Shown: one piece after another, positions 5,294 to 54,131 of the stretch | Layout of the letters: every line of letters starts with the position of its first letter | How positions within the stretch are numbered: position 1 is the first letter of the stretch | Source of the DNA: Limisphaerales bacterium | Lineage (GTDB): Bacteria; Verrucomicrobiota; Verrucomicrobiia; Limisphaerales; JAEYXS01 | Assembly: GCA_965283725.1 (NCBI GenBank) | Contig: CBDIPT010000002.1 | Location: forward strand, 537,354 to 601,353 | Direction of reading: 5' to 3' | Length of the DNA stretch: 64,000 nucleotides | Notes under the pieces: model-generated | Seen by the model: only the letters and a program-made list of their open reading frames with translations | Told to the model about the DNA's origin: nothing | Database searches by the model: none | Position numbers and translations under genes: made by a program

Positions 5294-8158
5294 TTATTCG
5301 CTCAGAATCTTGGCGCGGCGCTCGTGGTATTCCTTCGGCGAGATCTTGTCCGCCTTGTAAAGGTCGAGCAGCTCTTTGAGCTTCGCTTCCTTGCCGGTAG
5401 CAGCCGGCTTGGTTTCGGAGGCCGTCTTCTTGTCCGCCTTCTTCTCCGGTTTCGGAGCTTCTGGCTTGGTGACGGTGGCAGCCGGAGCAGTGGTGGCCGG
5501 TTTCTTGACGGCAGCCGCTGCTTTCTTGGCCGCTTCTGCTTCCGCTTTAGCCTTGGCTTCAGCCGCTTTCTTCGCCGTTTCAGCATCGGCCTTGGCCTTC
5601 GCTTCCGCGTCCTTCTTGGCCTTGGCATCAGCTTTGGCTTTAGCTTCGTCTGCCTTGCGCTTCGCTTCGGCTTCTTTCTTGGCCTTTTCTTGGGCGAGCT
5701 TGGCGTCGGCTTTAGCCTTCTTGTCAGCTGCTTCCTTGGCCTTCGCGGCTTCCTGCTTGGCTTTGGCTTCTTTCTCAGCCGTCAATTTGGCGACCTTGGC
5801 CTGCTCTTCTTTTTTCTTCGCGGCTTCTGCGGCTGCTTTCTTGGCCGCTTCTTCGCGGGCTTTGGCATCCGCCTTGGCCTTCGCATCAGCCATTTCTTTG
5901 GCCTTGGCTTCGATCTTGGCTTTTTCTTCCGCCGCCTTCTTGGCGTCCGCCGAAGGGGCAGCCGGCTTCACCGGTTCAACCTTCTTAGGTTCGGCCACGG
6001 TGGCGACCACTGGCTTCTTCGGTTCTTCCACCTTCTTGACCGCCGGGGCAGGGGCCGCCGGTTTGGTCATCTTGGCCTGCTCGGCCTTCTTCGCTTCGGC
6101 TTGTGCCTTGGCGATCTTGGCTTGTTCAGCCTGACGTTTTTCGGCTTCTTCGGCCGCTTTCTTGGCCGCAGCTTCCTTGGCTTTGACCTCTTCCTTAGCC
6201 TTGGCCGCAGCGAGTTCTTTGGCCTTCGCATCCGCCTTGGCTTTCGCTTCCGCAGCTTCCTTCTGCGCCTTTAAGCGGGCCTTCTCATCCTTCAAGCGTT
6301 GTGCATCGGCCTTCTCTTTGGCTTCCGCGTCTGCTTTGGCTTTGGCCATCTGCGCTTTCTTGGCGGCGGCTTCGGCGTCCTTCTTTGCTTCGGCTTCCTT
6401 CTCGGCCTTGGCTTTCGCGAGCTTGGCCTGTTTCTCGGCTTCCGCTTTGGCTTTCTTGTCGGCCTCAGCCTTGGCTTCGGCTTCTTTCGCCGCCTTTTCC
6501 TTGGCCAGCTTGGCTTGTTTCTCCGCTTCAGCCTTGGCCTTCTTGTCCATGTCCGCTTTGGCAACGGGCTTGGTGGTCTTGGCCGCAGCGAGTTCTTTGG
6601 CCTTGGCATCCGCCTTGGCTTTTTCTTCCGCCGCTTTCTTGGCGCTCTGCGCCTTCATTTCGGCCTGGCGCTTCTCTTCAAGTTGTTTAGCTGCTTCCGC
6701 TTCAGCCTTGGCTTTGGCTTCCGGCGTGGCTGACTTCGGATCGATGACCGGAGCCTTGGCCATCTTGGCACGGGCTTCGGCGCGTTCTTTCTCGATCTGG
6801 GCCTGACGGGCTTTGGCTTCTTCGTCCGCCTTCTTGCGGGCTTCTTCACGTTCCTTGCCCTTCGCAGCGGCCATTTCATCCGCCTTCTTCTTGGCGGCGG
6901 CGCGTTCGGCATTGATACGTTCCGATTCCGTCATGAGTGCCGGGTCCTTGGTGGCCGGAGTAGGCGCAGCGACGGGCGGCTTGGCATCCGTCTTCGCCAT
7001 CTTGGCTTTCTTCTCGGCTTCCGCTTTCGCTTTCTTGTCAGCATCCGCTTTGGCCTTGGCTTCAGCTTGGGCTTTGGCTTCGGCTTCTTTCTTGGCGGTG
7101 GCGGCGGCCTTCAAACGGGCTTCTTCGGCTTTCTTGGTGTCCGCTGCGGCGGGCTTGGGCGTCGTCGTGGCGGTGGTCACCGGCTTCGAAGGTTTGCTGG
7201 CCGTAGTGGCAGGAGCAGCGACCGAAGCGCTGGTAGAATGCTGCGTCGTGGCACGCGGCACAACGGAGCGCGGCGTAGAGGTGGTCGGCGTGGTGCGCAC
7301 AGCGCGTTCACGCATCTGGGCGAGGGCGGACGCCTTAGCGTCGGCTTCAGCCTTCTGCAGTTCGGCTTCGCGCATCTTGGCGAGCAGCGACGCTTTGGCA
7401 TCGGCTTCAGACTTCAGCAAAGCCTGATTGCGATCCAGTGCGAGCACCGAAGATTTGGCTTCCGCTTCAAATTGTTGGACAGAAACACCACGATTTGCGG
7501 CCGCAGGCTTGGAAGCCGGAGCAGCAGCGGTGGTGGCCGTGGCAGGTTTGGAACCGGTGGCCGGCTTCGCCGCCGTCTTGGTCATGCCCGCCTTCTTCTG
7601 GGCTTCAGCGGCGGCTTTCTTGTCAGCGTCCGCTTTGGCCTTGGCTTGGGCTTCCGCCAATTTCTTGGCTTCGGCTTCCTTCTTCTTGGCGACTTCGGCA
7701 GCCTTCTTGTCAGCGTCGGCTTTGGCTTTCGCGGCAGCGTCGGCTTTCTTCTTGGCCTCGGCATCCGCTTTGGCTTTGGCGTCCGCGGCTTTCTTCGCTT
7801 CGGCTTCAGCCTTCTTCTTGGCTTCCGCTTCCTTCTTGGCGGCTTCTTCCTTGGCCTTGGCTTGGGCTTCTGCGGCCTTCTTGGCGGCGGCCTCAGCCTG
7901 CTTCTTCGCTTCGGCATCCGCTTTCGCTTTTGCTTCGGCTTCTTCTTTGGCTTTTTCAGCGGCCTTGGCTTTGATTTTTTCCGCTTCGCGGGCCTCGCGT
8001 TCCTGTTTGCGCTTGGCTTCGGCTTCCGCTTTCAGTTTGGCAGAAGCATCGGCCTGAGCATAAAGAACGGTCTCGGCGTAGACGGTGGTGTCCGGCGTGA
8101 CGGAGATCACTCCCCACGTAATCAGCAGGGCTAGCAGGAATAGCTTGGAAAGTCGCAT
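5294..8158 (-). CDS. Ala/Lys/Glu-rich low-complexity envelope protein (TolA-domain-II-like helical repeats) with N-terminal signal/anchor and C-terminal SHOCT-like motif
   Basis: 954-aa ORF. N-terminus MRLSKLFLLALLITWGVISV. Hundreds of residues of AKAEAEAKKKA-type sequence with Thr/Pro-rich patches. C-terminus KLKELLDLYKADKISPKEYHERRAKILSE. All other frames are open only because of the composition. Confidence 0.8.
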   Translation of the reverse strand: MRLSKLFLLALLITWGVISVTPDTTVYAETVLYAQADASAKLKAEAEAKRKQEREAREAEKIKAKAAEKAKEEAEAKAKADAEAKKQAEAAAKKAAEAQAKAKEEAAKKEAEAKKKAEAEAKKAADAKAKADAEAKKKADAAAKAKADADKKAAEVAKKKEAEAKKLAEAQAKAKADADKKAAAEAQKKAGMTKTAAKPATGSKPATATTAAAPASKPAAANRGVSVQQFEAEAKSSVLALDRNQALLKSEADAKASLLAKMREAELQKAEADAKASALAQMRERAVRTTPTTSTPRSVVPRATTQHSTSASVAAPATTASKPSKPVTTATTTPKPAAADTKKAEEARLKAAATAKKEAEAKAQAEAKAKADADKKAKAEAEKKAKMAKTDAKPPVAAPTPATKDPALMTESERINAERAAAKKKADEMAAAKGKEREEARKKADEEAKARQAQIEKERAEARAKMAKAPVIDPKSATPEAKAKAEAEAAKQLEEKRQAEMKAQSAKKAAEEKAKADAKAKELAAAKTTKPVAKADMDKKAKAEAEKQAKLAKEKAAKEAEAKAEADKKAKAEAEKQAKLAKAKAEKEAEAKKDAEAAAKKAQMAKAKADAEAKEKADAQRLKDEKARLKAQKEAAEAKAKADAKAKELAAAKAKEEVKAKEAAAKKAAEEAEKRQAEQAKIAKAQAEAKKAEQAKMTKPAAPAPAVKKVEEPKKPVVATVAEPKKVEPVKPAAPSADAKKAAEEKAKIEAKAKEMADAKAKADAKAREEAAKKAAAEAAKKKEEQAKVAKLTAEKEAKAKQEAAKAKEAADKKAKADAKLAQEKAKKEAEAKRKADEAKAKADAKAKKDAEAKAKADAETAKKAAEAKAKAEAEAAKKAAAAVKKPATTAPAATVTKPEAPKPEKKADKKTASETKPAATGKEAKLKELLDLYKADKISPKEYHERRAKILSE

Positions 8159-14900: not shown

Positions 14901-15407
14901 TTATTCAGGTAAATCTACGGCCGCGACGGCCATGGCGGCGATGCCTTCTTCCCGGCCGATGAACCCCATGTGTTCATTCGTGGTCGCCTTCAAGCCGATT
15001 TTCTTCGGTTCCATGCCCAAAGCGGCGGCGATATGCAGCTTCATCGCGGGGAAATGTGGCCCCAGCTTCGGTGCCTGCGCGATCAGCGAGGCATCGATAT
15101 CGATGATGCGCCCGCCGCGCAACTTCACCTGCCGCGCCGCTTCCTCGAGGAAGATCCGGCTCGGCGCACCCTTCCAGCGCGGGTCCGTGTTCGGGAAGAA
15201 CTGCCCGATGTCCCCTTCGCCCAGCGCACCCAACACCGCATCACAGATGGCGTGCATCAAGGCATCGGCATCCGAATGCCCGTCCAAACCCTTCGTGTGC
15301 GGGATATCCACCCCGCCGAGGATCAGTTTGCGCCCTGCCACCAGTTGATGCACATCGTAACCAGTACCCACATGAATCATGCCGCTAATTTGGAGCCCAT
15401 ACGCCAT
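14901..15407 (-). CDS. ispF: 2-C-methyl-D-erythritol 2,4-cyclodiphosphate synthase
   Basis: GTGYDVHQL...GGVDIPHTKGLDGHSDADALMHAICDAVLGA is the canonical IspF zinc/substrate motif set. Confidence 0.92.
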   Translation of the reverse strand: MAYGLQISGMIHVGTGYDVHQLVAGRKLILGGVDIPHTKGLDGHSDADALMHAICDAVLGALGEGDIGQFFPNTDPRWKGAPSRIFLEEAARQVKLRGGRIIDIDASLIAQAPKLGPHFPAMKLHIAAALGMEPKKIGLKATTNEHMGFIGREEGIAAMAVAAVDLPE

Positions 15408-15431
15408 TACCGCAAGCTGTAACCTTTATTC

Positions 15432-15458
15432 GTAGCCGCCGAGGTAACGAGGCGGAAC
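15432..15458. repeat. 27-nt intergenic repeat family R1 (GTAGCYGCCGASGTRASGAGGCRGAAC)
   Basis: gtagccgccgaggtaacgaggcggaac. Related copies at 23943-23980, 24016-24043, 35846-35872 and 36345-36371, plus an inverted copy at 36391-36417. Confidence 0.8.
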
Positions 15459-15724
15459 TAACTAAGGCCCACCATCGTCCTGAACTCCGCGCCGTCAGGT
15501 CGGGGCGTGCTCGTCGTCGTCCTTCGTCCTCGAATCAAGCCGAGCGCCGGTCTCCGACCCGGCGAGTCACTTTATAACGGGAGGGACCGCGTACCGCGGT
15601 CCCATGCCAATCCTTTCCCGTTTGACGAAACACCGGCACCGGCGTAACTAAAAACCCATGAATAAGGACGTTTTTTCATCAATTGCGGGCGGAAGCCATT
15701 ACCCAACAGAGCCGACTTTTTGTG

Positions 15725-15743
15725 GTCTAACAATCTGTTAGGC
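15725..15743 (+). repeat. minimal palindromic core site gtctaac-aatct-gttaggc (possible collapsed attC or array boundary)
   Basis: GTCTAAC fits RYYYAAC and GTTAGGC fits GTTRRRY. They are 5 nt apart, 9 nt upstream of the GTG start at 15753. Confidence 0.4.
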
Positions 15744-15752
15744 CCTAATACA

Positions 15753-16196
15753 GTGAAAACCATCAGCTACGATATTGATTCCCTAGCGGTTCCGGTCTCG
15801 TCGTTAGCAGTAGTCCCAATGAACTTCGGTCAGCCACGTCTTTGGGAAGGGCGTGCGACAAGTCGCTACGTGTTACAAGTGCCAGTTGATGAGATTTACC
15901 AGATACTGTCTAAAAGCTATGCCGATTATCTAGACGACGCGCTTCGATATCCTGATCCGGATTGTCAATTGGATCAGTCCTTGTCTCGTTTGAGTTGGCC
16001 ACCGCTTGAGAAGCTTGCCGCTCAGGCCCCGGACACGTTTCAAGAGTTGATGGCATTCTATGACTACGACATTTTGCTTTCGATCGAGTCGCGACATTCT
16101 TCCCGTTCGTTTACTCACGTGATTGTTTGTGTAGACGAAGTCGTTTACAGGGATGAATGCGTTCGGTTGGCTGGTATTGTTGTTCCATTGAGATGA
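15753..16196 (+). CDS. hypothetical protein (cassette-like ORF)
   Basis: The ORF-track frame 15720-16196 is trimmed to the GTG at 15753 just after the GTTAGGC core (VKTISYDIDS...). No motif recognised. Confidence 0.55.
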   Translation: MKTISYDIDSLAVPVSSLAVVPMNFGQPRLWEGRATSRYVLQVPVDEIYQILSKSYADYLDDALRYPDPDCQLDQSLSRLSWPPLEKLAAQAPDTFQELMAFYDYDILLSIESRHSSRSFTHVIVCVDEVVYRDECVRLAGIVVPLR

Positions 16197-16206
16197 TAAA
16201 TTATAG

Positions 16207-16314
16207 ACCTAACAAATCGCTGTGGCCTACACGGGATGGCGCTGGCAGTTCCGTCCTGCACTGCGGGGTGGTTGAAATCCCAAGTCTGGCATGGCTGGGT
16301 TTGCGGCGTTAGTG
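16207..16314 (+). repeat. attC-like site (acctaac ... gttagtg)
   Basis: R''-like ACCTAACAAATCG begins 10 nt after the stop at 16194-16196. R'-like GCGGCGTTAGTG ends 12 nt before the ATG at 16327. Confidence 0.45.
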
Positions 16315-16326
16315 ATACTCAATGCC

Positions 16327-16623
16327 ATGCATCGGCTTTATCACGACTTCAACAAGCTCTTTCCGGGTAAGGCACCGGGGATGCGTTCTGCGCCACTTAT
16401 ATGCGTGGGCACGCGAGAGGACCTCGAAGCTTTAAACATCACGCTCCAAGACGGTATGGGAGTAATGCTTTATCAGCCGGATGATATTGCGTCTGACGGT
16501 TCGGCTGACTGGTTAGAGGTGCGAGCAACGATCAGGTTTGATCAGGAGGCCCAGTGCTTTATGGGTGACTTTATCTGGGACGAGTTGAAATATCGCTCCG
16601 AGGCTCAAGCAGAGAGGAAATGA
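16327..16623 (+). CDS. hypothetical protein (cassette-like ORF)
   Basis: Frame of ORF 16291-16623. The internal ATG at 16327 (MHRLYHDFNKLF...) lies just past the GTTAG core. Confidence 0.55.
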   Translation: MHRLYHDFNKLFPGKAPGMRSAPLICVGTREDLEALNITLQDGMGVMLYQPDDIASDGSADWLEVRATIRFDQEAQCFMGDFIWDELKYRSEAQAERK

Positions 16624-16627
16624 AGCC

Positions 16628-16706
16628 GCCTGACCACACGCTGCAGCGAACCCGGCGTGAGCGTCGTGTTTGCAGTTCATGTGTCTCGAGTGCCGGATCG
16701 CTAAGC
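16628..16706 (+). repeat. degenerate attC-like site (gcctgac ... gctaagc)
   Basis: Its start GCCGCCTGACCACAC is homologous to the start of the 25008 site (GCCGCCTAACCACAC). The 3' core is degenerate. Confidence 0.3.
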
Positions 16707-17020
16707 GGTTTTGTGTGATTACCAGCTTCAAGAGATCGACATCGACAGTTCGTCGTGCTGTTTTGCTAACGGCGTTGGCCTTGGTTTCGTTCGCCATTCC
16801 GATAATCTGGACTTTCGTGTTCCGACTTTACGCGCAAGGATTCGGATTGTTTGTCGTGTTATACTTCATCTTCGCCATCCCAGCAACAGTCGTATCGATC
16901 ATTGCGAGCCGACGGCGGGAGTGGCAGCACCCAGACGGAGGCAAGCGTTTGCTGCTCGCATTTTACAGCTCACCCATTATCATGATTTTATTGTTGGCAG
17001 GATGGGCTTTGAGGAGGTGA
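16670..17020 (+). CDS. small hydrophobic membrane protein, hypothetical
   Basis: Three hydrophobic spans (LLTALALVSFAIPIIWTFVF, FGLFVVLYFIFAIPATVVSIIA, LLLAFYSSPIIMILLLAGWAL). The true start is uncertain and may be the TTG inside the ORF. Confidence 0.5.
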   Translation: MQFMCLECRIAKRFCVITSFKRSTSTVRRAVLLTALALVSFAIPIIWTFVFRLYAQGFGLFVVLYFIFAIPATVVSIIASRRREWQHPDGGKRLLLAFYSSPIIMILLLAGWALRR

Positions 17021-17094
17021 GTGTTTTGCCATCAAACATTTGCGACAATCCCTTACATTCAAGACATTAAATTCTCAAACGGCTGCCGGATAAC

Positions 17095-17595
17095 ATGACG
17101 TTCCCCACGACCCAATTCACCTACCGCGTGACCAGCGCCGAGAGCCTGGACGCCATCCGCCCGCTGTGGGAACAGCTCCGGGCTTATCATGGGCAACTAG
17201 CCTCGCCTTTCGCCGATGAGATGGGGCGTGTTACATTCGAGGCGCGCAAACAGGAACTGCTCACCAAATCCACCAATGGGACGCTGCAGATCGAATTAGT
17301 CAGCACGGCTTCAGATGCAATAGACATCGCCTACTGTGTCAGCACCGTCTCGGCAGGAGGGCGAGGGGAGATTGATTCGCTCTTTGTGGATGCCCGTTTT
17401 CGCGGGCAAGGGATTGGCAGCGAACTCATTCGTCATGCGTTGACTTGGCTGGATGGCATGGGCGCGATGACAAAGGTCGTGTCCGTTGCCTATGCCAATG
17501 AAGAGGCGCTCGCGCTTTACCGCCGTTTTGGTTTTCAACCCCGCACGGTTTTGCTGCAACAGCTGCAGAAAGGCGGACAAACCGTTACGCAATGA
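17095..17595 (+). CDS. GNAT family N-acetyltransferase
   Basis: 166-aa ORF with the acetyl-CoA motif A: FVDARFRGQGIGSELIRHALTWL. Confidence 0.8.
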   Translation: MTFPTTQFTYRVTSAESLDAIRPLWEQLRAYHGQLASPFADEMGRVTFEARKQELLTKSTNGTLQIELVSTASDAIDIAYCVSTVSAGGRGEIDSLFVDARFRGQGIGSELIRHALTWLDGMGAMTKVVSVAYANEEALALYRRFGFQPRTVLLQQLQKGGQTVTQ

Positions 17596-17629: not shown

Positions 17630-17909
17630 ATGAGAGCTTTAGCGCGCATATTGGTGGTGATTGGAATACTGAATTTCGCCAGTTTTTGGATAATTAGTTT
17701 GCTCCTTGGTGGAGATGCCACAGGCACCAAGATAGTCGATGGGAAGTATTTTGTCTCCGAGCATGGTCGTCAGAGAGGTGTCGCGTGCCTTCTATGAGTA
17801 TAGTCTGTTTCATACTCGTTCTGTCTGGGTTACCCATCCGTTGGCGTTGATTGGTGTTTGTCTTTTGCTGCAAGAGAATCAAGGACAGAAAACCAAACCT
17901 GCGGCATAG
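17630..17909 (+). pseudogene. small membrane protein gene split by a frame change near 17770-17780
   Basis: ATG 17630 gives MRALARILVVIGILNFASFWIISLLLGGDATGTKIVDGKYFVSEHGRQ..., with a stop at 17795-17797. The +1 frame continues [32 protein letters not shown] to a stop at 17907-17909. Confidence 0.35.
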
Positions 17910-18022
17910 CTATTTGCTGTGGTGATTACCGGTTGTCGAAGTCTCCATCTTTCGTCTCTCCCGCCATTGACTTGAGGGCTTCTTCATCCATAGTAACCCC
18001 CACTTTAAATTTGGAGAAAATT

Positions 18023-19159
18023 ATGGCGGCGAAAACGATTGAAAAGAATCCCCCGGCGGAAACTAAAGCAACGGAAAAAGCGGTAGAGAAAGCAGACAAG
18101 GCAGCCGATAAAGCCGCCGAAAAAGCGCTCGAAAAGACCGCCGAAGACAGCAAGTTGAAAGCGGCCCGCAATCGCGAGCTGGATGCCGCGATCGCGACGA
18201 TCACCAAGACTTTCGGCGAAGGCAGCATCATGCGTCTCGGCGATGCCCGCGCGCAGACGAAGATTGATGTCATTCCTACGGGCGCTTTGGCGCTCGACCT
18301 CGCCCTCGGCGTCGGCGGTTTGCCGCGCGGTCGTATCATCGAGATCTACGGTCCGGAATCCTCCGGTAAGACGACGCTCATGTTGCACGTCATCGCCAAT
18401 GCCCAAAAGGCCGGCGGTCTCGCGGCGTTCATCGATGCGGAACATGCCTTGGACCCCGCTTACGCCAAGAAGCTCGGCGTGAACTTGGACGACCTCCTCG
18501 TTTCGCAGCCGGACAGCGGTGAAGAAGCGCTGACCATTTGCGAAACCTTGGTCCGTTCCAACGCGCTCGACGTCATCGTCATCGACTCCGTTGCCGCGCT
18601 TGTGCCCAAGTCCGAACTCGAAGGCGAGATGGGCATGGCCACGATGGGTATGCAGGCGCGGTTGATGCAGGCGCTGCGCAAGCTCACGGCCATCCTGAGC
18701 AAAGCCAAGACGACGTGTATCTTCATCAACCAGCTCCGCGAAAAAGTCGGCGTCATGTTCGGCAGCCCCGAGACGACCACAGGCGGTAAGGCACTGAAGT
18801 TCTACGCCTCTGTGCGTATCGATATCCGTCGCAAAGACGCGTTGAAGGATGCCGCTGGCGCGGCCATCGGTAACCACGTGAAGTGCAAGATCGTGAAGAA
18901 CAAGATGTCCCCGCCGTTCACCGAAGCGGAGTTCGATATCATGTTCAACCACGGTATCAACAAGGAAGGCTCCATCCTGCAAGTGGGCACGGACTTGGGC
19001 GTCATCGAGAAGAAGGGCGCGTGGCTCCAATTCAATGGCGAACTTATCGGCCAAGGCAAAGATGCCGCCGCGAAGGCACTCGCTGAGAAGCCTGACCTGC
19101 AGAAGAAGATCGTGGAAGCCATCTTGGTCAAGCACACCGAGAACAAGAAGGTGGCCTAA
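18023..19159 (+). CDS. recA: recombinase RecA
   Basis: GGAG lies 7 nt before the ATG at 18023. [10 protein letters not shown], Walker [11 protein letters not shown], and the L1/L2 region [19 protein letters not shown]. Confidence 0.93.
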
Positions 19160-23942: not shown

Positions 23943-24043
23943 GTAGCCGTCCCTCATACGGAATCAGGAGGCGGAACTGACTAACCGTGTGGGAAGCTTA
24001 GCTGAAACGTCCCCCTTAGCTGCCGAGGTGACGAGGCTCAAAC
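23943..24043. repeat. two R1-family repeat copies
   Basis: gtagccgtccctcatacggaatcaggaggcggaactgac at 23943-23980, and tagctgccgaggtgacgaggctcaaac at 24016-24043. Confidence 0.7.
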
Positions 24044-24112
24044 CTGCTACCCTCAAGTGTCACCCATCTCCTCGGAACGTGCCGTAGCAATCGGCATCCT
24101 GGAGGGATGAAA

Positions 24113-24322
24113 GAAAGTAGCCGGTTGGTTGAGCGAGGCACGAGCGATACCACCGGTTAGCTGGCAAAAAGAACAGCACTCTGAAGGAGTGCTAGAAATC
24201 AGGATGATAGGAGATGTTCTGGCATCCCTTCAGGATGCGGTTTCTAGAGCACAGTTTTCCGGAGGTATCACCCGTAAAACGGGTTCAACCTCCTGCTACT
24301 TTCTCTCAACCCTCCGGGTTGA
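24113..24322. repeat. ~190-nt multi-hairpin structured element, copy A (possible ncRNA or MITE-like repeat)
   Basis: Closing helix 24113-24121/24295-24303. gatacc/ggtatc 24146-24151/24264-24269. Hairpins at 24175-24193, 24222-24238, 24270-24284 and 24306-24322. Same order as copy B at 32531-32714. Confidence 0.6.
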
Positions 24323-24449
24323 AAACGTATCAGGGTAGTCAGTACCAGTACGCCCGCCGCCACTCCTAATCCTTTTATAATCTTCCCGGCCATCAAACCC
24401 ATTTGACGAACTCCCCGCCCCATGGCTTATTAAGCCCTGTGACCAAGGC

Positions 24450-24526
24450 GCTTAACATCGATACAGTAACCCATATCCCATATGGAACAATGCCGAATCA
24501 TTTCCCCCGCTATTAGCATGTTAGGC
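24450..24526 (+). repeat. attC-like site (gcttaac ... gttaggc)
   Basis: GCTTAAC fits RYYYAAC and GTTAGGC fits GTTRRRY. The site ends 21 nt before the ATG at 24548. Internal pairing is weak. Confidence 0.35.
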
Positions 24527-24547
24527 GTTTTCTCGCGTGCTGTGAGA

Positions 24548-25000
24548 ATGAAGAGTCTGAGTATTGCTGTTGTTGTTTTGCTCGCGACATGGTCGGTGTT
24601 TGCCGCCGAGTCGACAGCTCAGATTCGCCTGGGTGCTCCTGCTCACATCAAAGCCCCGCCTGGTAGCGCGACTGCTGGCAGCACTTGGATTGAGTTTTCA
24701 GTAAGCGTAACGAATATCACGAAGCGATCCATATGGTTTCATGGCTATTCACTTAGTTCCCCCTTCTACAGCCTTTTCACCCGCCAGATTAATTCTGCCA
24801 ATTGGACTGACCGAGGCGTAGGTTTCTGCGGCACTGGTGCTGGCATTTTTGAGCTTCCGGCTGGCGCTGCCACATCTTTCACCGTCGCTGTACCCGAGCG
24901 CTACGTCGGCGAGCAGCTTCGGGTCGAGTTGGCCGTTCTGGCTTCACCGAAGGATTTGAAGGGTATTTCTGTCTCCAGCGAGGCAGCCTCTATCAAATGA
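24548..25000 (+). CDS. secreted hypothetical protein (cassette-like ORF)
   Basis: Internal ATG of ORF 24482-25000. Signal peptide MKSLSIAVVVLLATWSVFAAES. Confidence 0.6.
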   Translation: MKSLSIAVVVLLATWSVFAAESTAQIRLGAPAHIKAPPGSATAGSTWIEFSVSVTNITKRSIWFHGYSLSSPFYSLFTRQINSANWTDRGVGFCGTGAGIFELPAGAATSFTVAVPERYVGEQLRVELAVLASPKDLKGISVSSEAASIK

Positions 25001-25007
25001 CACCGCC

Positions 25008-25109
25008 GCCTAACCACACACCGCCATGTCTTGCCAACGTGTCCGCTGAAGCCTTGAGCGCAGGCGGATGGGTCGGGGTTCCCGCGGCTGCGGGATTGGG
25101 TCGTTAGCT
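25008..25109 (+). repeat. attC-like site (gcctaac ... gttagct)
   Basis: Begins 7 nt after the stop at 24998-25000 and ends 13 nt before the ATG at 25123. gcctaaccac pairs with gggtcgttagc leaving one bulged base. Confidence 0.5.
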
Positions 25110-25122
25110 CGCATCACGTGCC

Positions 25123-25524
25123 ATGAGAAACCGAAAGAGTTCACTACTTTTCTCGTTCATTGCTGCTGGCTTGGTAGTCGTTGGCGTTGGAGTGTGGCTT
25201 TTCTTTGGTGATTCCATTCGTGAGCGATTGAGTCGTCAGCGGTTTGACCCGGTGGCGTGGAAGACGGACGACCGCAGCTACACGAACGCGGTCAGGATTC
25301 GGATGGTGGATGATCTCTTGCAGCGCCACAGTTTTCGAGGCATGACACGTGAGCAGGTTGTTGCCCTAGTTGGAGAGCCAGACAAGACGGAGTATTTCAA
25401 AGAGTGGGACTTGGTTTACTGGCTGGGTCCAGAGCACGGATTCATCAGCATGGATTCGGAATGGCTGGTTTTCCACCTCGACAGCCAGAAGAAAGTCACA
25501 GACTTGAGGATTGTGGGGGATTAA
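25123..25524 (+). CDS. membrane-anchored small protein, BamE/SmpA-OmlA-like (weak)
   Basis: N-terminal TM segment SLLFSFIAAGLVVVGVGVWLFF. GMTREQVVALVGEPD resembles the BamE-like fold signature. Confidence 0.6.
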   Translation: MRNRKSSLLFSFIAAGLVVVGVGVWLFFGDSIRERLSRQRFDPVAWKTDDRSYTNAVRIRMVDDLLQRHSFRGMTREQVVALVGEPDKTEYFKEWDLVYWLGPEHGFISMDSEWLVFHLDSQKKVTDLRIVGD

Positions 25525-25532
25525 ATGATGAC

Positions 25533-25643
25533 ACCTAAACATACACCGCCATGTCTTGCCAACGTATCCGCTGAAGCCTTGGAGAAAGTGGAAGCTCTGA
25601 GCGCAGGCGGATGGGCCCGGCCGCTGTGCTGTTATCGTTAGAC
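25533..25643 (+). repeat. attC-like site (acctaaac ... gttagac)
   Basis: Begins 8 nt after the stop at 25522-25524. GTTAGAC fits GTTRRRY, 18 nt before the ATG at 25662. The internal acaccgccatgtcttgccaacgtatccgctgaagccttg is shared with the 25008 site. Confidence 0.5.
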
Positions 25644-25661
25644 CGATCAAGCACCACCACT

Positions 25662-26186
25662 ATGGACGATAAAGAGAAAATCGAAGCACAGATTACCTCG
25701 GCATTTGCGGTTGTGGAGTATCCTGGTGATTGGTGCTTGCGAGACAGCAACGAGGGAGATGAGCCTTACTTGGTGGAGAAAGAGTTCAGAGGAAAGACCG
25801 ACTGGCGTGTTCTTGACCCGAAGTTTCTCGACCAAGCGCCCGACGGATACGGTTCGGCACTCAGCTTCTTTTCGGACGAGGCATTTCACTTCTACCTTCC
25901 GGCTTACATGATTGCCGACGTTCGCGGACAGTTGGAGCGGGTCGACCCGGTTCACCACCTGACTCACGGTCTTGACGAGGCGTCGAGATGCGAGCGCATC
26001 AACCCACGCCGCTATGGCGAGCGGACGTGGTTCGAACATGCGCGGCACAAGTTTGCCATTTTCAGCCGCGAAGAGACGGCAGCGATTATCGGCTACCTCA
26101 CCCTACGAAAAGATGCTTACGACTTCGAGCACCAGAGGATTGATGAGGCGTTGAAAAACTATTGGCATGAACGGGCGGCCTCCTGA
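25662..26186 (+). CDS. hypothetical protein (cassette-like ORF; resembles immunity-type DUF proteins)
   Basis: Internal ATG of ORF 25611-26186 (MDDKEKIEAQITSAF...). The string ALSFFSDEAFHFYLPAYMIADV recalls DUF6714-type proteins, from memory only. Confidence 0.6.
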   Translation: MDDKEKIEAQITSAFAVVEYPGDWCLRDSNEGDEPYLVEKEFRGKTDWRVLDPKFLDQAPDGYGSALSFFSDEAFHFYLPAYMIADVRGQLERVDPVHHLTHGLDEASRCERINPRRYGERTWFEHARHKFAIFSREETAAIIGYLTLRKDAYDFEHQRIDEALKNYWHERAAS

Positions 26187-34415: not shown

Positions 34416-35840
34416 ATGAGCCAGTATCAGTCGTATAAGTATCTCCCGGCACTCGCAGGCATCTGCACGATGGATGAAGCGCAGCGGACCGGCCTTTCGG
34501 TGGAGGAATGCGTCCACCGGCTCAAACGTTTTCACTACGCCTTCAAACGGCTGCACCATATCTTTACCGCGCGTATCACCGCAGAGCCGGTCTATGAGCT
34601 AAAGATGGCCTTCAGCTACCACTCGCACCTCTGCGCCGAGCATGTCAGTGCCTTGCGCAAGCGTGTGGGTGAGATGCGCGAGCCACCACTTGGATTAGAT
34701 GCCGTACCGGACAAGAGTCTGGAACTCTTCTTCAACGAAATCCTCAGTGCTACAACGACGGAAGAGTTATTGCTAGGTGTTTATGAGAAAGCCGTGCCTG
34801 CATTGAAAGCCGGACTGGAACGCCATCTCGCGGAAACGAATCCGCTGGTGGATCACCCGTCCGTGCGCGTCGTGCGGCATGCGTTGCTGGAGCTGAATGA
34901 CCTTCTAGATTACGGTACGACGGCGATTGCCTGCATTGTTTCCAGTCAAGCGCGTGATGCAGCCAAAGGCTGGCTCACGTTGCTGGATGATTGTCTTGCT
35001 GTAGCCGGTGGATTGGATGGGGCGACGGAAGCGGTGCAAAAGAATCTGCCGCTAAAGCATTCGGCCAAGCCTTACAAGTTCGATGGTTTTCCGAAACGAG
35101 ACGAGCGGTTCCCGGACCCTTACAACATGGGCGTGAACGCCGAGGTATTCCTGTATGACCAGCAGTTCTTGCCGGACCCGAAGACGCTGATGATGTTCTA
35201 CAAGCGCCTGCGCGAGATCGATGTGCCGGAGATGATGGCGAGCATCATCGCGGAGACGCCGGACAAGCCGTGGGGTTATTATCACGACATGACGCGGCAG
35301 CTCTGGGACGAAGCGCGCCATGCCATGATGGGCGAAGTCGGCTTCGTGAACCTCAATATCAACTGGCCGGAAAAAGTGATGGTGAACTTCACGTGGTCGA
35401 TGGCGCTCAATACGCAGTTGAAGCCTATCGAGCGGCATGCGGTGTTGTATTTCATCGAGCAAGGGTTGATGCCCAAGACGGGCAAACGCTTTGAGTGGGA
35501 AGTGGGCTTGGCCTCGCACAATCCGCTGGCGGGCCTGTTCCAAGATTACGATTGGGCGGATGAAGTGCTGCACGCGCGCGTCGGTCGTGACTGGTATGTG
35601 AGCCAGATCGGTGATGCCAAACAGGCCGTGCAATATGGCGACGAATGCTGGTCCAAGGTGATGATGGGTTGGAGCACGTGGCGCGATGAAGGCCACACCC
35701 AACACCGCAACTGGTGGCCGGGACTTTACACGGCGGCATGCCAGACTTGGGGCATCGAGCCTGATCCCAAGGTGCTCGCCTACAACGTGAGTTATGAGAA
35801 CGTGCGGGCGGATTTGAAGGATTTGAGTGCTTCGGCCTGA
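34416..35840 (+). CDS. ferritin-like (di-iron carboxylate) superfamily protein, DUF455-like
   Basis: ATG at 34416 (MSQYQSYKYLP...). Two ExxH-type strings: LWDEARHAMMGE and WADEVLHARVG. Confidence 0.65.
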   Translation: MSQYQSYKYLPALAGICTMDEAQRTGLSVEECVHRLKRFHYAFKRLHHIFTARITAEPVYELKMAFSYHSHLCAEHVSALRKRVGEMREPPLGLDAVPDKSLELFFNEILSATTTEELLLGVYEKAVPALKAGLERHLAETNPLVDHPSVRVVRHALLELNDLLDYGTTAIACIVSSQARDAAKGWLTLLDDCLAVAGGLDGATEAVQKNLPLKHSAKPYKFDGFPKRDERFPDPYNMGVNAEVFLYDQQFLPDPKTLMMFYKRLREIDVPEMMASIIAETPDKPWGYYHDMTRQLWDEARHAMMGEVGFVNLNINWPEKVMVNFTWSMALNTQLKPIERHAVLYFIEQGLMPKTGKRFEWEVGLASHNPLAGLFQDYDWADEVLHARVGRDWYVSQIGDAKQAVQYGDECWSKVMMGWSTWRDEGHTQHRNWWPGLYTAACQTWGIEPDPKVLAYNVSYENVRADLKDLSASA

Positions 35841-35845
35841 TTAAG

Positions 35846-35872
35846 GTAGCCGCCGAGACACGGAGGCGGAAC
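35846..35872. repeat. R1-family repeat copy
   Basis: gtagccgccgagacacggaggcggaac. Confidence 0.75.
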
Positions 35873-35916
35873 TTGCCAAAACAGCGAGGGATAGGCACTT
35901 TATAGACGTGCCCACG

Positions 35917-36291: not shown

Positions 36292-36344
36292 CCGTGATGC
36301 AACGGAGTCGCAGCAGCGGCGCCTTGCCTAGATAAGATTTCGGC

Positions 36345-36417
36345 GTAGCCGATGACGTAATGAGGCGGAACTTGCATAAAAAAGAGGTCAGTTCTGCCTC
36401 CTTACGTCGGCAGCTAC
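36345..36417. repeat. R1 repeat plus inverted copy forming a long imperfect hairpin
   Basis: gtagccgatgacgtaatgaggcggaac (36345-36371), a 19-nt loop, then gttctgcctccttacgtcggcagctac (36391-36417). Confidence 0.75.
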
Positions 36418-40936: not shown

Positions 40937-42379
40937 ATGAAGGGGCTCCGCCAGTTGTGGTTCGGCTGGTTGCTGCTGGCGCAGGCGGTATCTGTTCAAG
41001 CGGTGGAACAGCTCGTTGCCACGGTAAAGGAGTTCGCGGCCTTTCAGCGCGCGGCCAAGCCGGGAGACATCCTCATCCTCAAAGATGGTGTGTGGGCGGA
41101 TACCGAGTTGCTGTTCGATGCGCAGGGCGAAGCGGGCCAGCCCATCACACTGCGGGCGCAGACGCCGGGCAAGGTGGTGCTGACGGGCAAGTCGCGGTTG
41201 CGTATTGGCGGGCAGCATCTGGTGGTGGAAGGGTTGTGGTTCAAGGAGGCGAAAGAGCGCCAGCATGACGTCATCGAGTTCCGTGCCACTTCGGTCAAAC
41301 CAGCGCTGAATTGCCGTCTGACCGGTTGCGCTATCACGAGTTTGAATCCGCCAGATAAAAAGCGGGATTACAAGTGGGTCTCCCTCTATGGCGTCAGCAA
41401 TCGCGTGGATCACTGTTACTTCGGCGGGAAGCAGCATGCGGGCACGACGTTGGTGGTGTGGGTGGGAGACAAGCCGAATTACCATCAGATAGACCACAAT
41501 CACTTCGGGCCGCGTCCGCGTTTGGGCGAGAACGGGGGCGAGACCATTCGCGTGGGCACGAGCGAGGTGTCCATGAACAACTCCCGCACGGTCGTGGAGT
41601 TCAATCTCTTTCAGGAATGCAATGGTGAGGTGGAGATCGTGTCCAACAAGTCCTGCGAGAACATCTATCGGCACAATACGTTCTTGAACTGCGAAGGAGC
41701 GATGACATTGCGGCATGGCAACCGGTGCGTGGTGGAGGCGAATTACTTTCTCGGCAATCACCGCAAGAACACGGGCGGCGTGCGGGTTATCGGGGAAGAT
41801 CATCGCGTGGTGAACAATTTGTTCTCCGAGTTGGAGGGAGTGGAGGCAAGGTCGGCTCTGACGTTAATGAACGGGCTGAAGGATTCGCCGCTGCACGGCT
41901 ATTTTCAGGTGAAGCGGGCGGTGATCGCGTTCAATACGTTCTCCAACTGCCAATCTTCGGTGTTGATCGGCTATGTGAGTGATAATCCGAAGGGCGGAGA
42001 TTTACCGCCGTTGGATTGTGTGTTTGCGAACAACTTGCTGGAGTCAGCCAAGGTGCCTTTGATCAAGGTGGAGACGGTGCCGCAAAACTGGAAGTGGCAG
42101 GGGAATATCGCGATTGGAGATGCTGGCATGGCGATTTCCGCTGGAATTGACCAGATTGATGCGAAGGGCAAAGACTGGCGTCCTGCTGGTGCTCCGATGG
42201 ACTACAGTCGCACAGTTGGTAAAGGGGTGGCCGGTTTTCCTGAGGTTGAGGAGGATATCGAAGGTCAGCCGCGATATGCGGTGAAAGATGTTGGTTGCGA
42301 CCAGAAGTCTGTGGCACCCGTAAAGTATAAGATTCTGACAAAAGAGACGACGGGGCCGGGATGGTTGAAGGAGAGGTGA
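40937..42379 (+). CDS. polysaccharide lyase family 6-like (chondroitinase B / alginate lyase fold) protein
   Basis: ATG at 40937 with signal peptide MKGLRQLWFGWLLLAQAVSVQA. ILILKDGVWADTELLFDAQGEAGQPITLRAQTPGKVVLTGKSRLRIGGQHLVVEGLWFK resembles PL6 N-termini. Confidence 0.7.
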   Translation: MKGLRQLWFGWLLLAQAVSVQAVEQLVATVKEFAAFQRAAKPGDILILKDGVWADTELLFDAQGEAGQPITLRAQTPGKVVLTGKSRLRIGGQHLVVEGLWFKEAKERQHDVIEFRATSVKPALNCRLTGCAITSLNPPDKKRDYKWVSLYGVSNRVDHCYFGGKQHAGTTLVVWVGDKPNYHQIDHNHFGPRPRLGENGGETIRVGTSEVSMNNSRTVVEFNLFQECNGEVEIVSNKSCENIYRHNTFLNCEGAMTLRHGNRCVVEANYFLGNHRKNTGGVRVIGEDHRVVNNLFSELEGVEARSALTLMNGLKDSPLHGYFQVKRAVIAFNTFSNCQSSVLIGYVSDNPKGGDLPPLDCVFANNLLESAKVPLIKVETVPQNWKWQGNIAIGDAGMAISAGIDQIDAKGKDWRPAGAPMDYSRTVGKGVAGFPEVEEDIEGQPRYAVKDVGCDQKSVAPVKYKILTKETTGPGWLKER

Positions 42380-42383
42380 AGAG

Positions 42384-42420
42384 GTTAACCGCGAAATACG
42401 CTAAATACACGAAAAGGGGA
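42384..42420. repeat. GTTAACC-headed intergenic repeat R3 (gttaaccgcgaaatacgctaaatacacgaaaagggga)
   Basis: Near-identical copy at 49084-49119. A truncated copy is at 54132-54164. Confidence 0.8.
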
Positions 42421-49088: not shown

Positions 49089-49177
49089 CCGCGAAATACG
49101 CTAAAGACGCGAAAGGGGAATTCGACGTGCCAAGGCACGTCATGGGGAAAGCGGAGGCTGGCTTTCGCACTCCAAAG
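49084..49177. repeat. composite intergenic repeat: R3 module plus two-hairpin module R7
   Basis: gttaaccgcgaaatacgctaaagacgcgaaagggga (49084-49119). Then gacgtgccaaggcacgtc...cactccaaag (49124-49177), which is homologous to 54617-54668. Confidence 0.75.
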
Positions 49178-51477: not shown

Positions 51478-51553
51478 TTAACCGCAGATTGACATAGATG
51501 AACACAGATTAGCTGAAACATCGAACATCCAACATCGAACTCCGAACATCGAG
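51478..51553. repeat. composite intergenic repeat: GTTAACC-headed module plus aacatcgaac-type module R4
   Basis: gttaaccgcagattgacatagatgaacacagattag, then aaacatcgaacatccaacatcgaactccgaacatcgag. Confidence 0.75.
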
Positions 51554-51694
51554 AGGTGGCGGAGAGGCCCTGAATAGGGTTGCGGTGCGACTTGCTAAAA
51601 ATGTGAACTGCGGCTAAGAATATGGTGAGTCAGGAAGGCTTTTGACCAGGACTTAGCAGGTTTATGCGGGCGCCACCATGTGGAATGCGATTAA

Positions 51695-54010: not shown

Positions 54011-54013
54011 CGA

Positions 54014-54128: not shown

Positions 54129-54131
54129 TCT

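What the first reader, a model, noticed from the sequence alone, without database searches (positions are those of the whole stretch)
15725..17595. Cassette-like array 1: small same-strand ORFs separated by RYYYAAC...GTTRRRY sites, without a recognisable integrase
Seen in sequence. GTCTAAC-aatct-GTTAGGC (15725-15743) lies 9 nt before the GTG at 15753. ACCTAACAAATCG starts 10 nt after that ORF's stop, and GCGGCGTTAGTG ends 12 nt before the next ATG at 16327, giving a 108-bp site. GCCGCCTGACCACAC starts 4 nt after the next stop. Established knowledge: integron attC sites are 60-140-bp imperfect palindromes bounded by R'' (RYYYAAC) and R' (GTTRRRY), each sitting just after a promoterless cassette ORF. 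As I recall, the aadA attC ends are GTCTAACAATTCG...GCGTTAGAT, which is very close to what is seen here. Downstream come a small membrane ORF, a GNAT acetyltransferase and a frame-broken small membrane gene, all typical cassette cargo but without clear attC sites. Inference: a short CALIN-type array (attC cluster lacking an integrase) or the remnant of a chromosomal integron.
Basis: partly seen in the sequence, partly recalled or inferred. Interest (0 to 1): 0.6.

Follow-up and report, generated by a model that had tools for sequence, protein, structure and literature searches.

The report
Eroded integrase-less integron cassette array
Between the housekeeping genes ispF and recA of a Verrucomicrobiota genome lies a small, partly decayed array of integron-type gene cassettes with no integrase nearby: a known kind of element, preceded here by an unusual conserved "head" sequence that ends in an attI-like insertion core.

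Summary
16625-16722 is a real attC homolog. It scores 62.5 bits (E about 1e-16) against a covariance model built from 113 sites of an attC family that lies beside confirmed integron integrases in other genomes. Its R boxes are mutated (GCCTGAC; GTG instead of GTT). The 108-bp "site" 16207-16314 keeps only family-like ends and forms no hairpin, so it is at best an eroded attC. The 19-nt palindrome 15725-15743 is not an attC. It is the end of a roughly 150-nt lineage-specific head element, and it resembles the attI core of related complete integrons. Homology among head copies stops exactly at its GTTAGGC.

The ispF-recA interval is hypervariable. Relatives with RecA about 87-99% identical give five different same-strand small-ORF arrays and three empty sites. 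No integrase or integrase remnant is in the 64-kb window. A second such array lies at 24.4-26.2 kb.

Verdict: an integron-derived, integrase-less (CALIN/SALIN-like) cassette array that is mostly fossilised and is remodelled by homologous recombination between head copies. It is a new member of a known kind. The head element is the only possibly new part.

The parts
15598..15760 (+). Head element 'B' (type 1), a conserved ~150-nt non-coding module directly before the first cassette ORF
   Evidence: An nhmmer profile of the B copies scores it 3.1e-43. Copies head or lie inside every array of the lineage: L001 x3, L004 x2, L002, and window 24381-24538. None occurs in the 118 loci from other genomes. 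No Rfam match.
15622..15650 (+). Promoter-like TTGACG - 17 nt - TAACTA inside B (inferred and weak)
   Evidence: TTTGACGAA is invariant in all B copies. The -10 hexamer is poor, and the sigma-70 consensus scan does not call it.
15725..15743 (+). attI-like core: inverted repeat GTCTAAC / GTTAGGC (L and R boxes). The junction with the first cassette is at G|TTAGGC.
   Evidence: Homology among B copies ends exactly at this core: 58-61% identity in the 30 nt before it and 21-38% after it. It resembles attI ends of complete integrons that carry the same attC family, such as GGCCTACTCACTGTTCGG in L126 and CCGAATACCTGTTAGGG in L127.
15753..16196 (+). Cassette ORF1 (147 aa from the GTG; the public annotation aa from an internal ATG), an ORFan
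   Evidence: Only itself among 5.8 billion proteins. No Pfam match. Present in L004 but absent from L001 and L002.
16207..16314 (+). Eroded attC-like site. Its ends (ACCTAAC-AAAT-CGCTG ... TTTGCGGC-GTTAGTG) match the family, but there is no hairpin.
   Evidence: R1 scores it 7.1 bits, E 0.55 in 2.8 kb, matching only the R boxes and spacers. DNA fold z is +0.4 (top strand) and +2.0 (bottom strand). By eye, its 5' arm looks related to a site in L002.
16327..16623 (+). Cassette ORF2 (98 aa), a real small-protein family of unknown function
   Evidence: Exhaustive phmmer finds 58 homologs of about 100 aa. They align from query residue 13, which fixes the start at ATG 16327. No Pfam match.
16625..16722 (+). 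attC of the widespread PVC-type family. The L boxes and both bulged bases are intact. The R boxes are degenerate: R'' is GCCTGAC and the R' core is GTG instead of GTT.
   Evidence: Covariance model R1 scores it 62.5 bits (E 9.6e-17) on the + strand and 13.6 bits on the - strand. The fold keeps the L stem with two bulges but has no R pairing.
16715..17020 (+). Cassette ORF3, a small membrane protein (101 aa from the GTG that overlaps the decayed R' box)
   Evidence: ORF list. The orthologous gene call is L004 8479-8784. Weak DUF2721 match only.
17095..17595 (+). GNAT acetyltransferase with no attC after it. It is the only cargo shared by three array variants.
   Evidence: Pfam PF00583, 4.5e-15. 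89.9% identical to L001 8390-8836, and present in L004.
17630..17909 (+). Frame-broken small membrane gene, a strain-specific distal segment
   Evidence: Two overlapping ORFs, 17630-17797 and 17739-17909. No match in L001, L002 or L004.
17950..17994 (+). Right boundary of the variable region, with the recA promoter-like site
   Evidence: Homology with all relatives, including the empty sites, resumes here. TTGACT-16-CATAGT is called at 17967-17994.
24381..26186 (+). Second integrase-less array, outside the finding: B type 2 (24381-24538, core GTTAGGC at 24520-24526), ORFs 24551-25000, 25123-25524 and 25662-26186, and sites 25005-25112 and 25533-25648
   Evidence: nhmmer scores B at 4.5e-34. 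R1 scores 25005-25112 at 11 bits, E 0.03 in 2.5 kb. ORFs and Pfam DUF6714. The same locus in L001 holds six different small ORFs and four family attC sites.

Best explanation
The 2.4-kb stretch 15.6-17.95 kb is an integron-derived cassette array with no integrase of its own. It lies between divergent ispF and recA in a Verrucomicrobiota chromosome.

Shown:
- Its content differs between close relatives, and some relatives have the site empty.
- It holds one clear attC of a family that elsewhere flanks cassettes next to genuine integron integrases.
- That family has the canonical attC geometry and the circular-cassette junction signature.

Inferred mechanism:
- Cassettes (ORF plus attC) were excised as circles and inserted one at a time by an IntI-type tyrosine recombinase.
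- Insertion was at the G|TT of the GTTAGGC core that ends the head element B. B therefore acts like an attI, or a preferred genomic 'attG' landing site, and probably supplies transcription from a conserved TTGACG-containing region.
- The integrase was supplied from elsewhere in the genome or from a transient element, or has since been lost.

In this strain the sites have since decayed: AAC and GTT are lost at 16625-16722, the hairpin is lost at 16207-16314, and no site follows the distal ORFs. The present array is therefore largely frozen. Its recent changes came from homologous recombination between B copies. The window equals the L004 array minus 2.6 kb lying between two B copies.
For: attC identity.
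- A genome-collection scan found at least 118 loci with the motif, and 113 of 136 matches have an identical 63-nt span. Most are from Verrucomicrobiota and Planctomycetota.
- The consensus is GCCTAAC-CATG-CGCTGCAGCGAACCCGGC...GCCGGGTCGCTGAGC-TTGGGTC-GTTAGGC.
- Model R1 hits the window at 16625-16722 with 62.5 bits, and the hit is strand-specific.

The family is a genuine attC family.
- Integron integrases score above the TIGR02249 cut-off beside such sites in six loci. Two further complete integrons are L126 and L127.
- The reverse complement of each site's R'' flank matches the R' flank of the preceding site at 6.68 of 10 positions. The match to its own R' is 4.7 and the random value is 4.6; 0 of 20,000 permutations reach the observed value.
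- 81% of sites start within 40 nt of a same-strand ORF stop, against 17% of random positions. The stop codon is often the TAA of R'' itself.
- The bottom-strand fold is R box, unpaired spacer, then an L stem with two single-base bulges 6 bp apart on the '' arm. The verified aadA1 attC has the same layout.

Locus variability.
- L001, L002, L004, L128 and the window carry five different arrays of same-strand small ORFs.
- L003, L124 and L125 have ispF directly beside recA.
- GC is lower inside the array, and ORF1 is an ORFan.

No integrase.
- phmmer and tblastn find none in the window or within 10 kb in relatives.

Head element.
-.
- The B1/B2 recombinant structure is shown.
Against: - Only one site in the finding passes a model, and its R boxes lack the invariant AAC and GTT, so it is probably not recombinable now.
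- The second site is statistically indistinguishable from chance under the model (E 0.55).
- The distal ORFs (the membrane ORF, the GNAT and the broken gene) have no attC at all.
- The GNAT is shared by three relatives, so not all the content need have arrived as cassettes.
- IntegronFinder's generic attC model could not be run.
- Whether this genome has an intI anywhere is unknown. The best 120 of at least 7,952 IntI homologs include none on the source contig or on the 5.7-Mb relative, and the rest were not listed.
- B has no integrase-binding direct repeats like those in L126, and it is never seen next to an intI.
- The consensus scan does not call its promoter.
Confidence: 0.75

Rival explanations
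1. A distributed but still active integron. An intI elsewhere in this genome acts in trans on several B-headed arrays, at least the two in this window. B would be a portable attI-plus-promoter platform, and the decayed sites would simply be old cassettes.
For: - Two B-headed arrays lie 8.6 kb apart in the window, and both loci vary between relatives.
- Some sites in relatives are well preserved: L004 5227-5325 scores 91.9 bits and L001 18858-18956 scores 84.5 bits with intact GCTTAAC/GTTAGGC.
- Every distinct B copy is followed by a different cassette immediately after GTTAGGC.
- Integron integrases are common in Verrucomicrobiota and Limisphaerales.
Against: - No intI could be tied to this lineage.
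- All sites in the window's array 1 are damaged.
- The one recent rearrangement that could be reconstructed is homologous (B-B), not site-specific.
- B lacks recognisable IntI-binding direct repeats.
Confidence: 0.2
2. B is not an attI analogue but an ORF-less, promoter-bearing cassette. Arrays then appear to start with it because promoter-led arrays are the ones retained.
For: - Three of the four type-2 B copies begin 3-4 nt after an R'-like core: GTTAAAC in L001 (twice, once directly following a partial attC) and GTTAATC in L123. The window's copy has ATCAAAC, read here as a decayed core.
- Type 2 contains GCTTAAC 77 nt before its terminal GTTAGGC. This is the only strict RYYYAAC...GTTRRRY pair in the window.
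- The 5' boundary and the R'' share the minority TTAA variant.
- B copies occur inside arrays.
- Promoter-active ORF-less cassettes are documented (PMC6557892).
Against: - The 77-nt interval has no L-box stem and folds no better than shuffles (z -1.2 and -0.5).
- Type 1 B, the copy in this finding, lacks the distal R'' and the 5' R' core.
- Internal copies are equally well explained by homologous recombination.
Confidence: 0.2
3. A generic hypervariable intergenic islet built by ordinary horizontal transfer and homologous recombination of the flanking core genes. The single attC would then be a stray isolated cassette (SALIN), and the other motifs would be chance.
For: - Only one model-positive site is present.
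- recA-flanking regions are natural homologous-recombination anchors.
- The GNAT, the Band_7 gene and the multi-gene block in L004 (235, 138 and 137 aa) have no attC.
Against: - Strict same-strand orientation of 3 to 11 small ORFs in five variants.
- Family attC sites in three of the variants.
- The same head element with a GTTAGGC breakpoint at two independent loci.
- Enrichment of CTAAC...GTTAG pairs in the arrays.
Confidence: 0.1
4. Chance matches to a short degenerate motif in front of ordinary conserved genes; not a real feature.
For: RYYYAAC and GTTRRRY are short motifs. The window holds 37 and 40 copies of them per strand.
Against: - A 62.5-bit covariance-model hit.
- Empty sites in three relatives and different content in the others.
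- ORF1 is an ORFan.
Confidence: 0.02

Closest known systems
CALIN / SALIN elements (clusters of attC sites, or single attC sites, lacking an integron integrase; Cury et al. 2016, PMC4889954; Loot et al., bioRxiv 10.1101/2022.09.11.507474)
   Same: - Same-strand promoterless small ORFs followed by attC sites.
- No intI or intI pseudogene within 10 kb, as for 95% of published CALINs.
- Small size and no flanking transposable element.
- A plausible origin by IntI-mediated insertion at a genomic G|TT site next to a resident promoter.
   Different: - Only one attC is model-positive here, and it is degenerate.
- The array sits at a fixed, lineage-conserved position.
- It is headed by a repeated, conserved ~150-nt element with an attI-like core. 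That element recurs at a second locus and inside arrays. I found no description of such a feature for CALINs or for attG sites, which are reported as sequence-poor (GWT).
Sedentary chromosomal integrons (for example Vibrio, or Xanthomonas next to ilvD)
   Same: - Chromosomal, at a conserved site between core genes.
- Homogeneous attC family, cargo of ORFans and small proteins, strain-to-strain variation, and decay of sites.
   Different: - No intI and no demonstrable Pc/attI platform adjacent to an integrase.
- Arrays are short (3-11 ORFs).
- There are at least two separate arrays per genome.
Complete integrons of Verrucomicrobiota and other phyla carrying the same attC family (loci L016, L059, L113, L115, L116, L118, L126, L127)
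   Same: - The same attC family.
- The same cassette start layout (GTTAGGC, then 5-20 nt, then the start codon).
- attI ends of the form A/T-rich followed by TGTTAGG(C), with an upstream GGCCTA-type L box.
   Different: Those loci have a TIGR02249 integrase divergently transcribed next to attI, and L126 has integrase-binding direct repeats. The window has neither.
Class 1 integron aadA1 attC (59-base element)
   Same: - R''/R' boxes GTCTAAC and GTTAGAT.
- The bottom strand folds with two single-base bulges 6 bp apart on the '' arm, then 3 bp, a spacer and the R box. The PVC family has the same geometry.
   Different: - 60 nt against about 93 nt, with no sequence similarity outside the R boxes.
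- The bulged bases on the bottom strand are T and C here rather than T and G.

Membership tests
Integron attC site (applied to window 16625-16722) | Terminal inverse core R'' = RYYYAAC and core R' = GTTRRRY | tested here: not met
   R'' is GCCTGAC and the R' region is GTGTGAT, so GTT has become GTG (GTA in L004). Three of the 7 R pairs are non-standard in the R1 alignment. The family consensus itself meets the criterion: GCCTAAC / GTTAGGC.
Integron attC site (applied to window 16625-16722) | Imperfect palindrome with an L''/L' stem and extrahelical bases on the R''-L'' arm | tested here: met
   The L stem is retained, with both single-base bulges on the 5' arm. 13 of the 15 L pairs are standard in the R1 alignment.
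Integron attC site (applied to window 16625-16722) | Lies immediately 3' of a same-strand ORF, with length 55-140 nt | tested here: met
   It starts 1 nt after the ORF2 stop and is 98 nt long, and the next ORF starts inside its 3' end. Across the family, 81% of sites follow an ORF stop, against 17% of random positions.
Integron attC site (applied to window 16625-16722) | Homology or model match to sites that flank cassettes next to an integron integrase | tested here: met
   R1 was built without the window and its relatives and scores 62.5 bits, E about 1e-16. Integrases beside family sites pass TIGR02249.
Integron attC site (applied to window 16625-16722) | Detected by IntegronFinder's generic attC covariance model; recombined by IntI as a folded bottom strand | not testable with these tools
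   The IntegronFinder model is not available here, and no experiment was possible.
   The ends CTAAC/GTTAG pair, but the fold is no better than shuffles (z +0.4 top strand, +2.0 bottom strand). R1 scores 7.1 bits, E 0.55. R' is GTTAGTG, which fails GTTRRRY.
CALIN (IntegronFinder definition) | At least two model-positive attC sites within about 4 kb | tested here: inconclusive
   One clear but degenerate site and one eroded candidate in array 1. The generic model could not be run.
CALIN (IntegronFinder definition) | No integron integrase nearby | tested here: met
   No tyrosine recombinase ORF in the 64-kb window by phmmer at E<1e-3. tblastn with six IntI proteins gives a best E of 0.23.
Complete integron | intI gene with the IntI-specific domain adjacent to attI and the array | tested here: not met
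   The only integrase near relatives' loci is XerD-like, in L003 and L125.
attI site (applied to 15725-15743, the end of element B) | Sits at the head of the array, with the first cassette joined at G|TT of the core | tested here: met
   Eight distinct B copies are each followed by a different ORF. Identity drops from 58-61% to 21-38% exactly at GTTAGGC.
attI site (applied to 15725-15743, the end of element B) | Simple site made of inverted L and R boxes around the crossover | tested here: met
   GGTCTAAC-AATCT-GTTAGGCC here (9-bp stem), which compares with GGCCTA-CTCAC-TGTTCGG in the Limisphaerales integron L126.
attI site (applied to 15725-15743, the end of element B) | Adjacent to intI, with upstream integrase-binding direct repeats | tested here: not met
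   No intI is present. By inspection of the alignment, I saw no direct repeats of the L/R box inside B, unlike L126, L059 and L118.
ORF-less promoter cassette (applied to element B) | Bounded by an R' core at the 5' end and carrying its own attC at the 3' end | tested here: inconclusive
   Type 2 copies have GTTAAAC or GTTAATC at the 5' end and GCTTAAC 77 nt before GTTAGGC, but no L stem. The type 1 copy in this finding has neither feature.

The most novel reading that the evidence does not exclude
Element B is a portable platform: an attI-like core plus a promoter, without an integrase. It is present in several copies per chromosome, so that one trans-acting or transient IntI could feed multiple integrase-less arrays at fixed positions. 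B would also act as a homology patch that shuffles whole array segments. The result would be a 'distributed integron' in Verrucomicrobiota.
Probability: 0.2. Interest if true: 0.65.

Novelty: new member of a known kind. Interest (0 to 1): 0.4.

Why it matters
Integrase-less attC clusters are common, but their origin is debated. They could be decayed integrons, or cassettes inserted at genomic sites. This locus offers a natural series: three empty sites, five array variants, a conserved head element whose homology stops exactly at a GTTAGGC core, and a reconstructable homologous rearrangement. That series could help distinguish the two routes in a phylum where integrons are barely studied.

The work also documents a very sequence-conserved, roughly 93-nt attC family. 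It is found mostly in Verrucomicrobiota and Planctomycetota, and it has the same bulge geometry as the clinical aadA attC. That makes it useful as a search model for environmental cassettes.

In itself, the finding is an ordinary, mostly fossil cassette array.

Tried and rejected
- **Strict pattern.** RYYYAAC...GTTRRRY finds nothing in the finding.
- **Folding.** Intergenic spacers folded as DNA on both strands gave no significant hairpins except the L stem of 16625-16722.
- **Rfam.** At gathering and at E<=1 it explains neither the sites nor B.
- **tRNA or tmRNA as an integration target.** None in the window.
- **RNAalifold on the family alignment.** It recovered only the L box, and there is no covariation there because the search pattern fixed those columns. 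Within-site R-box covariation is absent, as expected if the R' end belongs to the next cassette. I therefore used the neighbour-junction test instead.
- **Exact-protein look-ups.** Three exact look-ups (two window proteins and the public ORF1 call) failed. Relatives were reached through cluster members instead.
- **Metagenome scan for B.** One short contig only.
- **Link between an IntI and this lineage.** I compared contig lengths among IntI homologs. This was inconclusive because only 120 of at least 7,952 were listed.
- **Sigma-70 scan.** It does not support the B promoter.
- **Whole island as an integrative element.** I set this aside. There is no integrase, and I did not search for flanking direct repeats.
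- **B as ancestral ispF-recA intergenic sequence.** Rejected, because nhmmer finds no B in the empty sites even at E<=100.
Full report
**Setting.** The finding lies between ispF (14901-15407, minus strand) and recA (18023-19159, plus strand). The ORFs in between are all on the plus strand:
- ORF1, 15753-16196
- ORF2, 16327-16623
- a small membrane ORF, 16715-17020
- a GNAT acetyltransferase, 17095-17595 (Pfam PF00583, 4.5e-15)
- a frame-broken small membrane gene, 17630-17909

GC falls to 0.47-0.54 here against about 0.59-0.60 in the flanks. The closest named RecA proteins are from Verrucomicrobiota at 80-87% identity. The source is a 748,172-bp NCBI contig.

**Checking the observation.** The strict consensus pair RYYYAAC...GTTRRRY at 50-160 nt occurs only once in the whole window, at 24450-24526, and not in the finding. 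The relaxed pair CTAAC...GTTAG within 15-160 nt occurs five times against 1.25 expected. Only 2 of 200 shuffles reach that count, and four of the five pairs lie in two small-ORF arrays.

**A real attC family.** I dumped the intergenic spacers of related loci. A pattern taken from it, CAGCGAACCCGG N30-60 TCGYTRAGC, matched at least 118 loci in the genome collection. Of 136 matches, 113 have an identical 63-nt span, and most come from Verrucomicrobiota and Planctomycetota.

The 113-sequence alignment has this consensus: GCCTAAC-CATG-CGCTGCAGCGAACCCGGC-(about 34 variable nt)-GCCGGGTCGCTGAGC-TTGGGTC-GTTAGGC. These are canonical R'' and R' boxes.

Four independent tests show that these are integron attC sites.
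1. Six of the loci carry an ORF above the curated cut-off of TIGR02249 'integron integrase' (273-414 bits against a cut-off of 265) next to such sites. Two more complete integrons, L126 from a Limisphaerales MAG and L127, were retrieved through IntI homologs.
2. The reverse complement of each site's R'' flank matches the R' flank of the preceding site at 6.68 of 10 positions (n=25). The match to its own R' is 4.7 and the random value is 4.6. None of 20,000 permutations reach the observed value, and the signal extends beyond the 7-nt box. This is the classical signature of cassettes that circularise and re-insert at G|TT.
3. 81% of sites begin within 40 nt of a same-strand ORF stop, against 17% of random positions. 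In about a third of sites the TAA inside GCCTAAC is the stop codon.
4. The bottom strand folds as a 7-bp R box, an unpaired spacer, and an L stem with two single-base bulges 6 bp apart on the '' arm. The aadA1 attC has the same geometry. I verified its sequence in 1,962 plasmid records at >=99% identity.

**The three sites of the finding.** A covariance model (R1) was built from the 113 sites, excluding the window and its relatives.
- **16625-16722.** R1 hits it at 62.5 bits (E 9.6e-17) on the plus strand and 13.6 bits on the minus strand. The L stem and both bulges are intact, but R'' is GCCTGAC and the R' core is GTG (GTA in the relative L004). The site has therefore probably lost recombination competence.
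- **16207-16314.** R1 scores it 7.1 bits (E 0.55 in 2.8 kb). Only its ends match (ACCTAAC-AAAT-CGCTG ... TTTGCGGC-GTTAGTG). It does not fold (z +0.4 top strand, +2.0 bottom strand). By eye, its 5' arm looks related to a site in L002. I read it as an eroded attC, but that is an inference.
- **15725-15743.** This palindrome is something else, described next.

**The head element B.** The roughly 150 nt before the first ORF (15598-15760) belong to a conserved non-coding element (nhmmer 3e-43).
- It heads every array of this lineage and also occurs inside arrays. Copies are at L001 7095, 16357 and 17263; L004 4789 and 7372; L002; and window 24381-24538.
- It is absent from the 118 loci of other genomes, from the empty sites and from Rfam.
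- It has two subtypes, each specific to one locus.
- It starts with an invariant TTTGACGAA followed 17-18 nt later by an A/T-rich hexamer. This looks like a promoter, but the consensus scan does not call it.
- It ends in GGYCTA-N5/6-TGTTAGGC. Among copies that head different cassettes, identity is 58-61% in the 30 nt before this core and 21-38% after it. The variable DNA therefore starts exactly at the core.
- The attI ends of complete integrons that carry the same attC family look alike: GGCCTACTCACTGTTCGG in L126, CCGAATACCTGTTAGGG in L127, TTAATATACTGTTAGGC in L059 and CACTTAACTGTTAGGC in L118.

It is not next to any integrase, however, and it lacks the direct repeats seen in L126.

Type-2 copies raise an alternative. 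Three of the four begin just after an R'-like GTTAAAC or GTTAATC, and the type contains GCTTAAC 77 nt before its terminal core. B could then be an ORF-less promoter cassette, a class known from oral metagenomes (PMC6557892). The 77-nt interval has no L stem, and the type-1 copy in this finding lacks these features.

**Comparative evidence.** Relatives were reached through RecA and IspF clusters and RecA homologs, with RecA about 87-99% identical.

| Locus | Content between ispF and recA |
|---|---|
| Window | B, ORF1 (147 aa), ORF2 (98 aa), membrane ORF (101 aa), GNAT, broken gene |
| L004 | B, 96, 114, 235, 138, 137 aa, then a second B, 147, 103, 101 aa, GNAT, 96, 67 aa |
| L001 | B, 215, 109 aa, GNAT, Band_7 |
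| L002 | B, 103 aa, a degenerate B-like element, 91 aa |
| L128 (contig starts inside the interval) | degenerate B-like element, Band_7, 91 aa |
| L003, L124, L125 | empty: ispF directly beside recA |

- Window 15608-17562 equals L004 7373-9326 at 96.4% identity, against 98% in the flanks. The window's B combines the upstream context of L004's first B with the body of the second. The two strains therefore differ by homologous recombination between B copies, a change of 2.6 kb.
- ORF1 is an ORFan.
- ORF2 belongs to a small family of about 100-aa proteins, whose alignment fixes its start at 16327.
- Other cargo mostly lacks Pfam matches.

**No integrase.** No tyrosine recombinase ORF or fragment is in the 64-kb window or within 10 kb in relatives. 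The integrase near L003 and L125 is XerD-like. I could not determine whether the genome has an intI elsewhere.

**Interpretation.** The locus is an integron-derived cassette array lacking an integrase, so it belongs to the CALIN/SALIN kind (PMC4889954; bioRxiv 10.1101/2022.09.11.507474). It is largely fossilised in this strain.
- The capture mechanism is inferred from the family's properties, not shown for this array. The proposal is IntI-mediated insertion of circular cassettes at the G|TT of the B core.
- The role of B as an attI analogue with a promoter is a hypothesis that I put at about 45%.
- A second, similar array at 24.4-26.2 kb shows that this is a recurrent feature of the genome.

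**Verdict.** The finding is a new member of a known kind, of moderate interest because of the head element and the clean comparative series.

Noticed in passing
window 24381-26186: A second integrase-less array. It has head element B type 2 (core GTTAGGC at 24520-24526), three same-strand ORFs (one DUF6714, one weak BamE-like), and two related ~110-nt sites at 25005-25112 and 25533-25648. Those sites keep family-like ends but have a different interior. In L001 the same locus holds six other small ORFs and four family attC sites.
   Followed up: partly
window 25030-25075 and 25555-25620; L001 17854-17997 and 18356-18526: An inner block ACGTRTCCGCTGAAGCCTTG...AGCGCAGGCGGATGGG recurs inside four attC-like sites. 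It looks like a small insertion or module within the variable part of the attC. I have no explanation for it.
   Followed up: no
window 24060-24340 (also L001 16071-16350): A conserved, hairpin-rich non-coding stretch of about 280 nt lies between the esterase gene and B type 2. It has no Rfam match at E<=0.01. It could be an ncRNA or a decayed element.
   Followed up: partly
window 15420-15459, 24004-24043, 35834-35873, 36333-36372: A REP-like intergenic hairpin repeat, GTAGCCGCCGAG..GAGGCGGAACT (family D14). One copy lies between ispF and element B and is absent from L004.
   Followed up: no
window 51509-51555, 54008-54054, 54516-54562; and 42371-42418, 49071-49118, 54116-54163: Two further short intergenic repeat families: AAACATCGAACATCCAACGCCCAAC..GAACATCGAAAG and CCGCGAAATACGCTAAAGACACGAAA. 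Their nature is unknown.
   Followed up: no
window 52012-52066: The fifth CTAAC...GTTAG pair in the window, spanning 55 nt. It lies outside both arrays and was not examined.
   Followed up: no
window 5294-8158 (- strand): A 954-aa ORF made almost entirely of phased GC-rich repeats (families D1-D13). It appears to encode a low-complexity Ala/Lys-rich protein.
   Followed up: no
loci L005-L122 (PVC attC family): This ~93-nt attC family is unusually conserved in sequence (mean column identity 80%) across MAGs labelled as several phyla. In about a third of sites the TAA of the R'' box GCCTAAC is the cassette's stop codon. Some taxon labels, such as 'uncultured Klebsiella', look like binning errors.
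   Followed up: partly
window 16327-16623 (ORF2) and proteins P0271, P0286, P0300: The ORF2 domain recurs 4-8 times inside large proteins of 599-1,897 aa. It may therefore be a repeat or immunity-type module rather than a stand-alone enzyme.
   Followed up: no
L004 5227-5325 and L001 7889-7986: Two otherwise well-preserved family attC sites end their R'' box in AAT instead of AAC. In L004 the R' also begins ATT instead of GTT, a complementary double change. In L001 the R' end reads GTCTAGAC, with neither GTT nor ATT.
   Followed up: no
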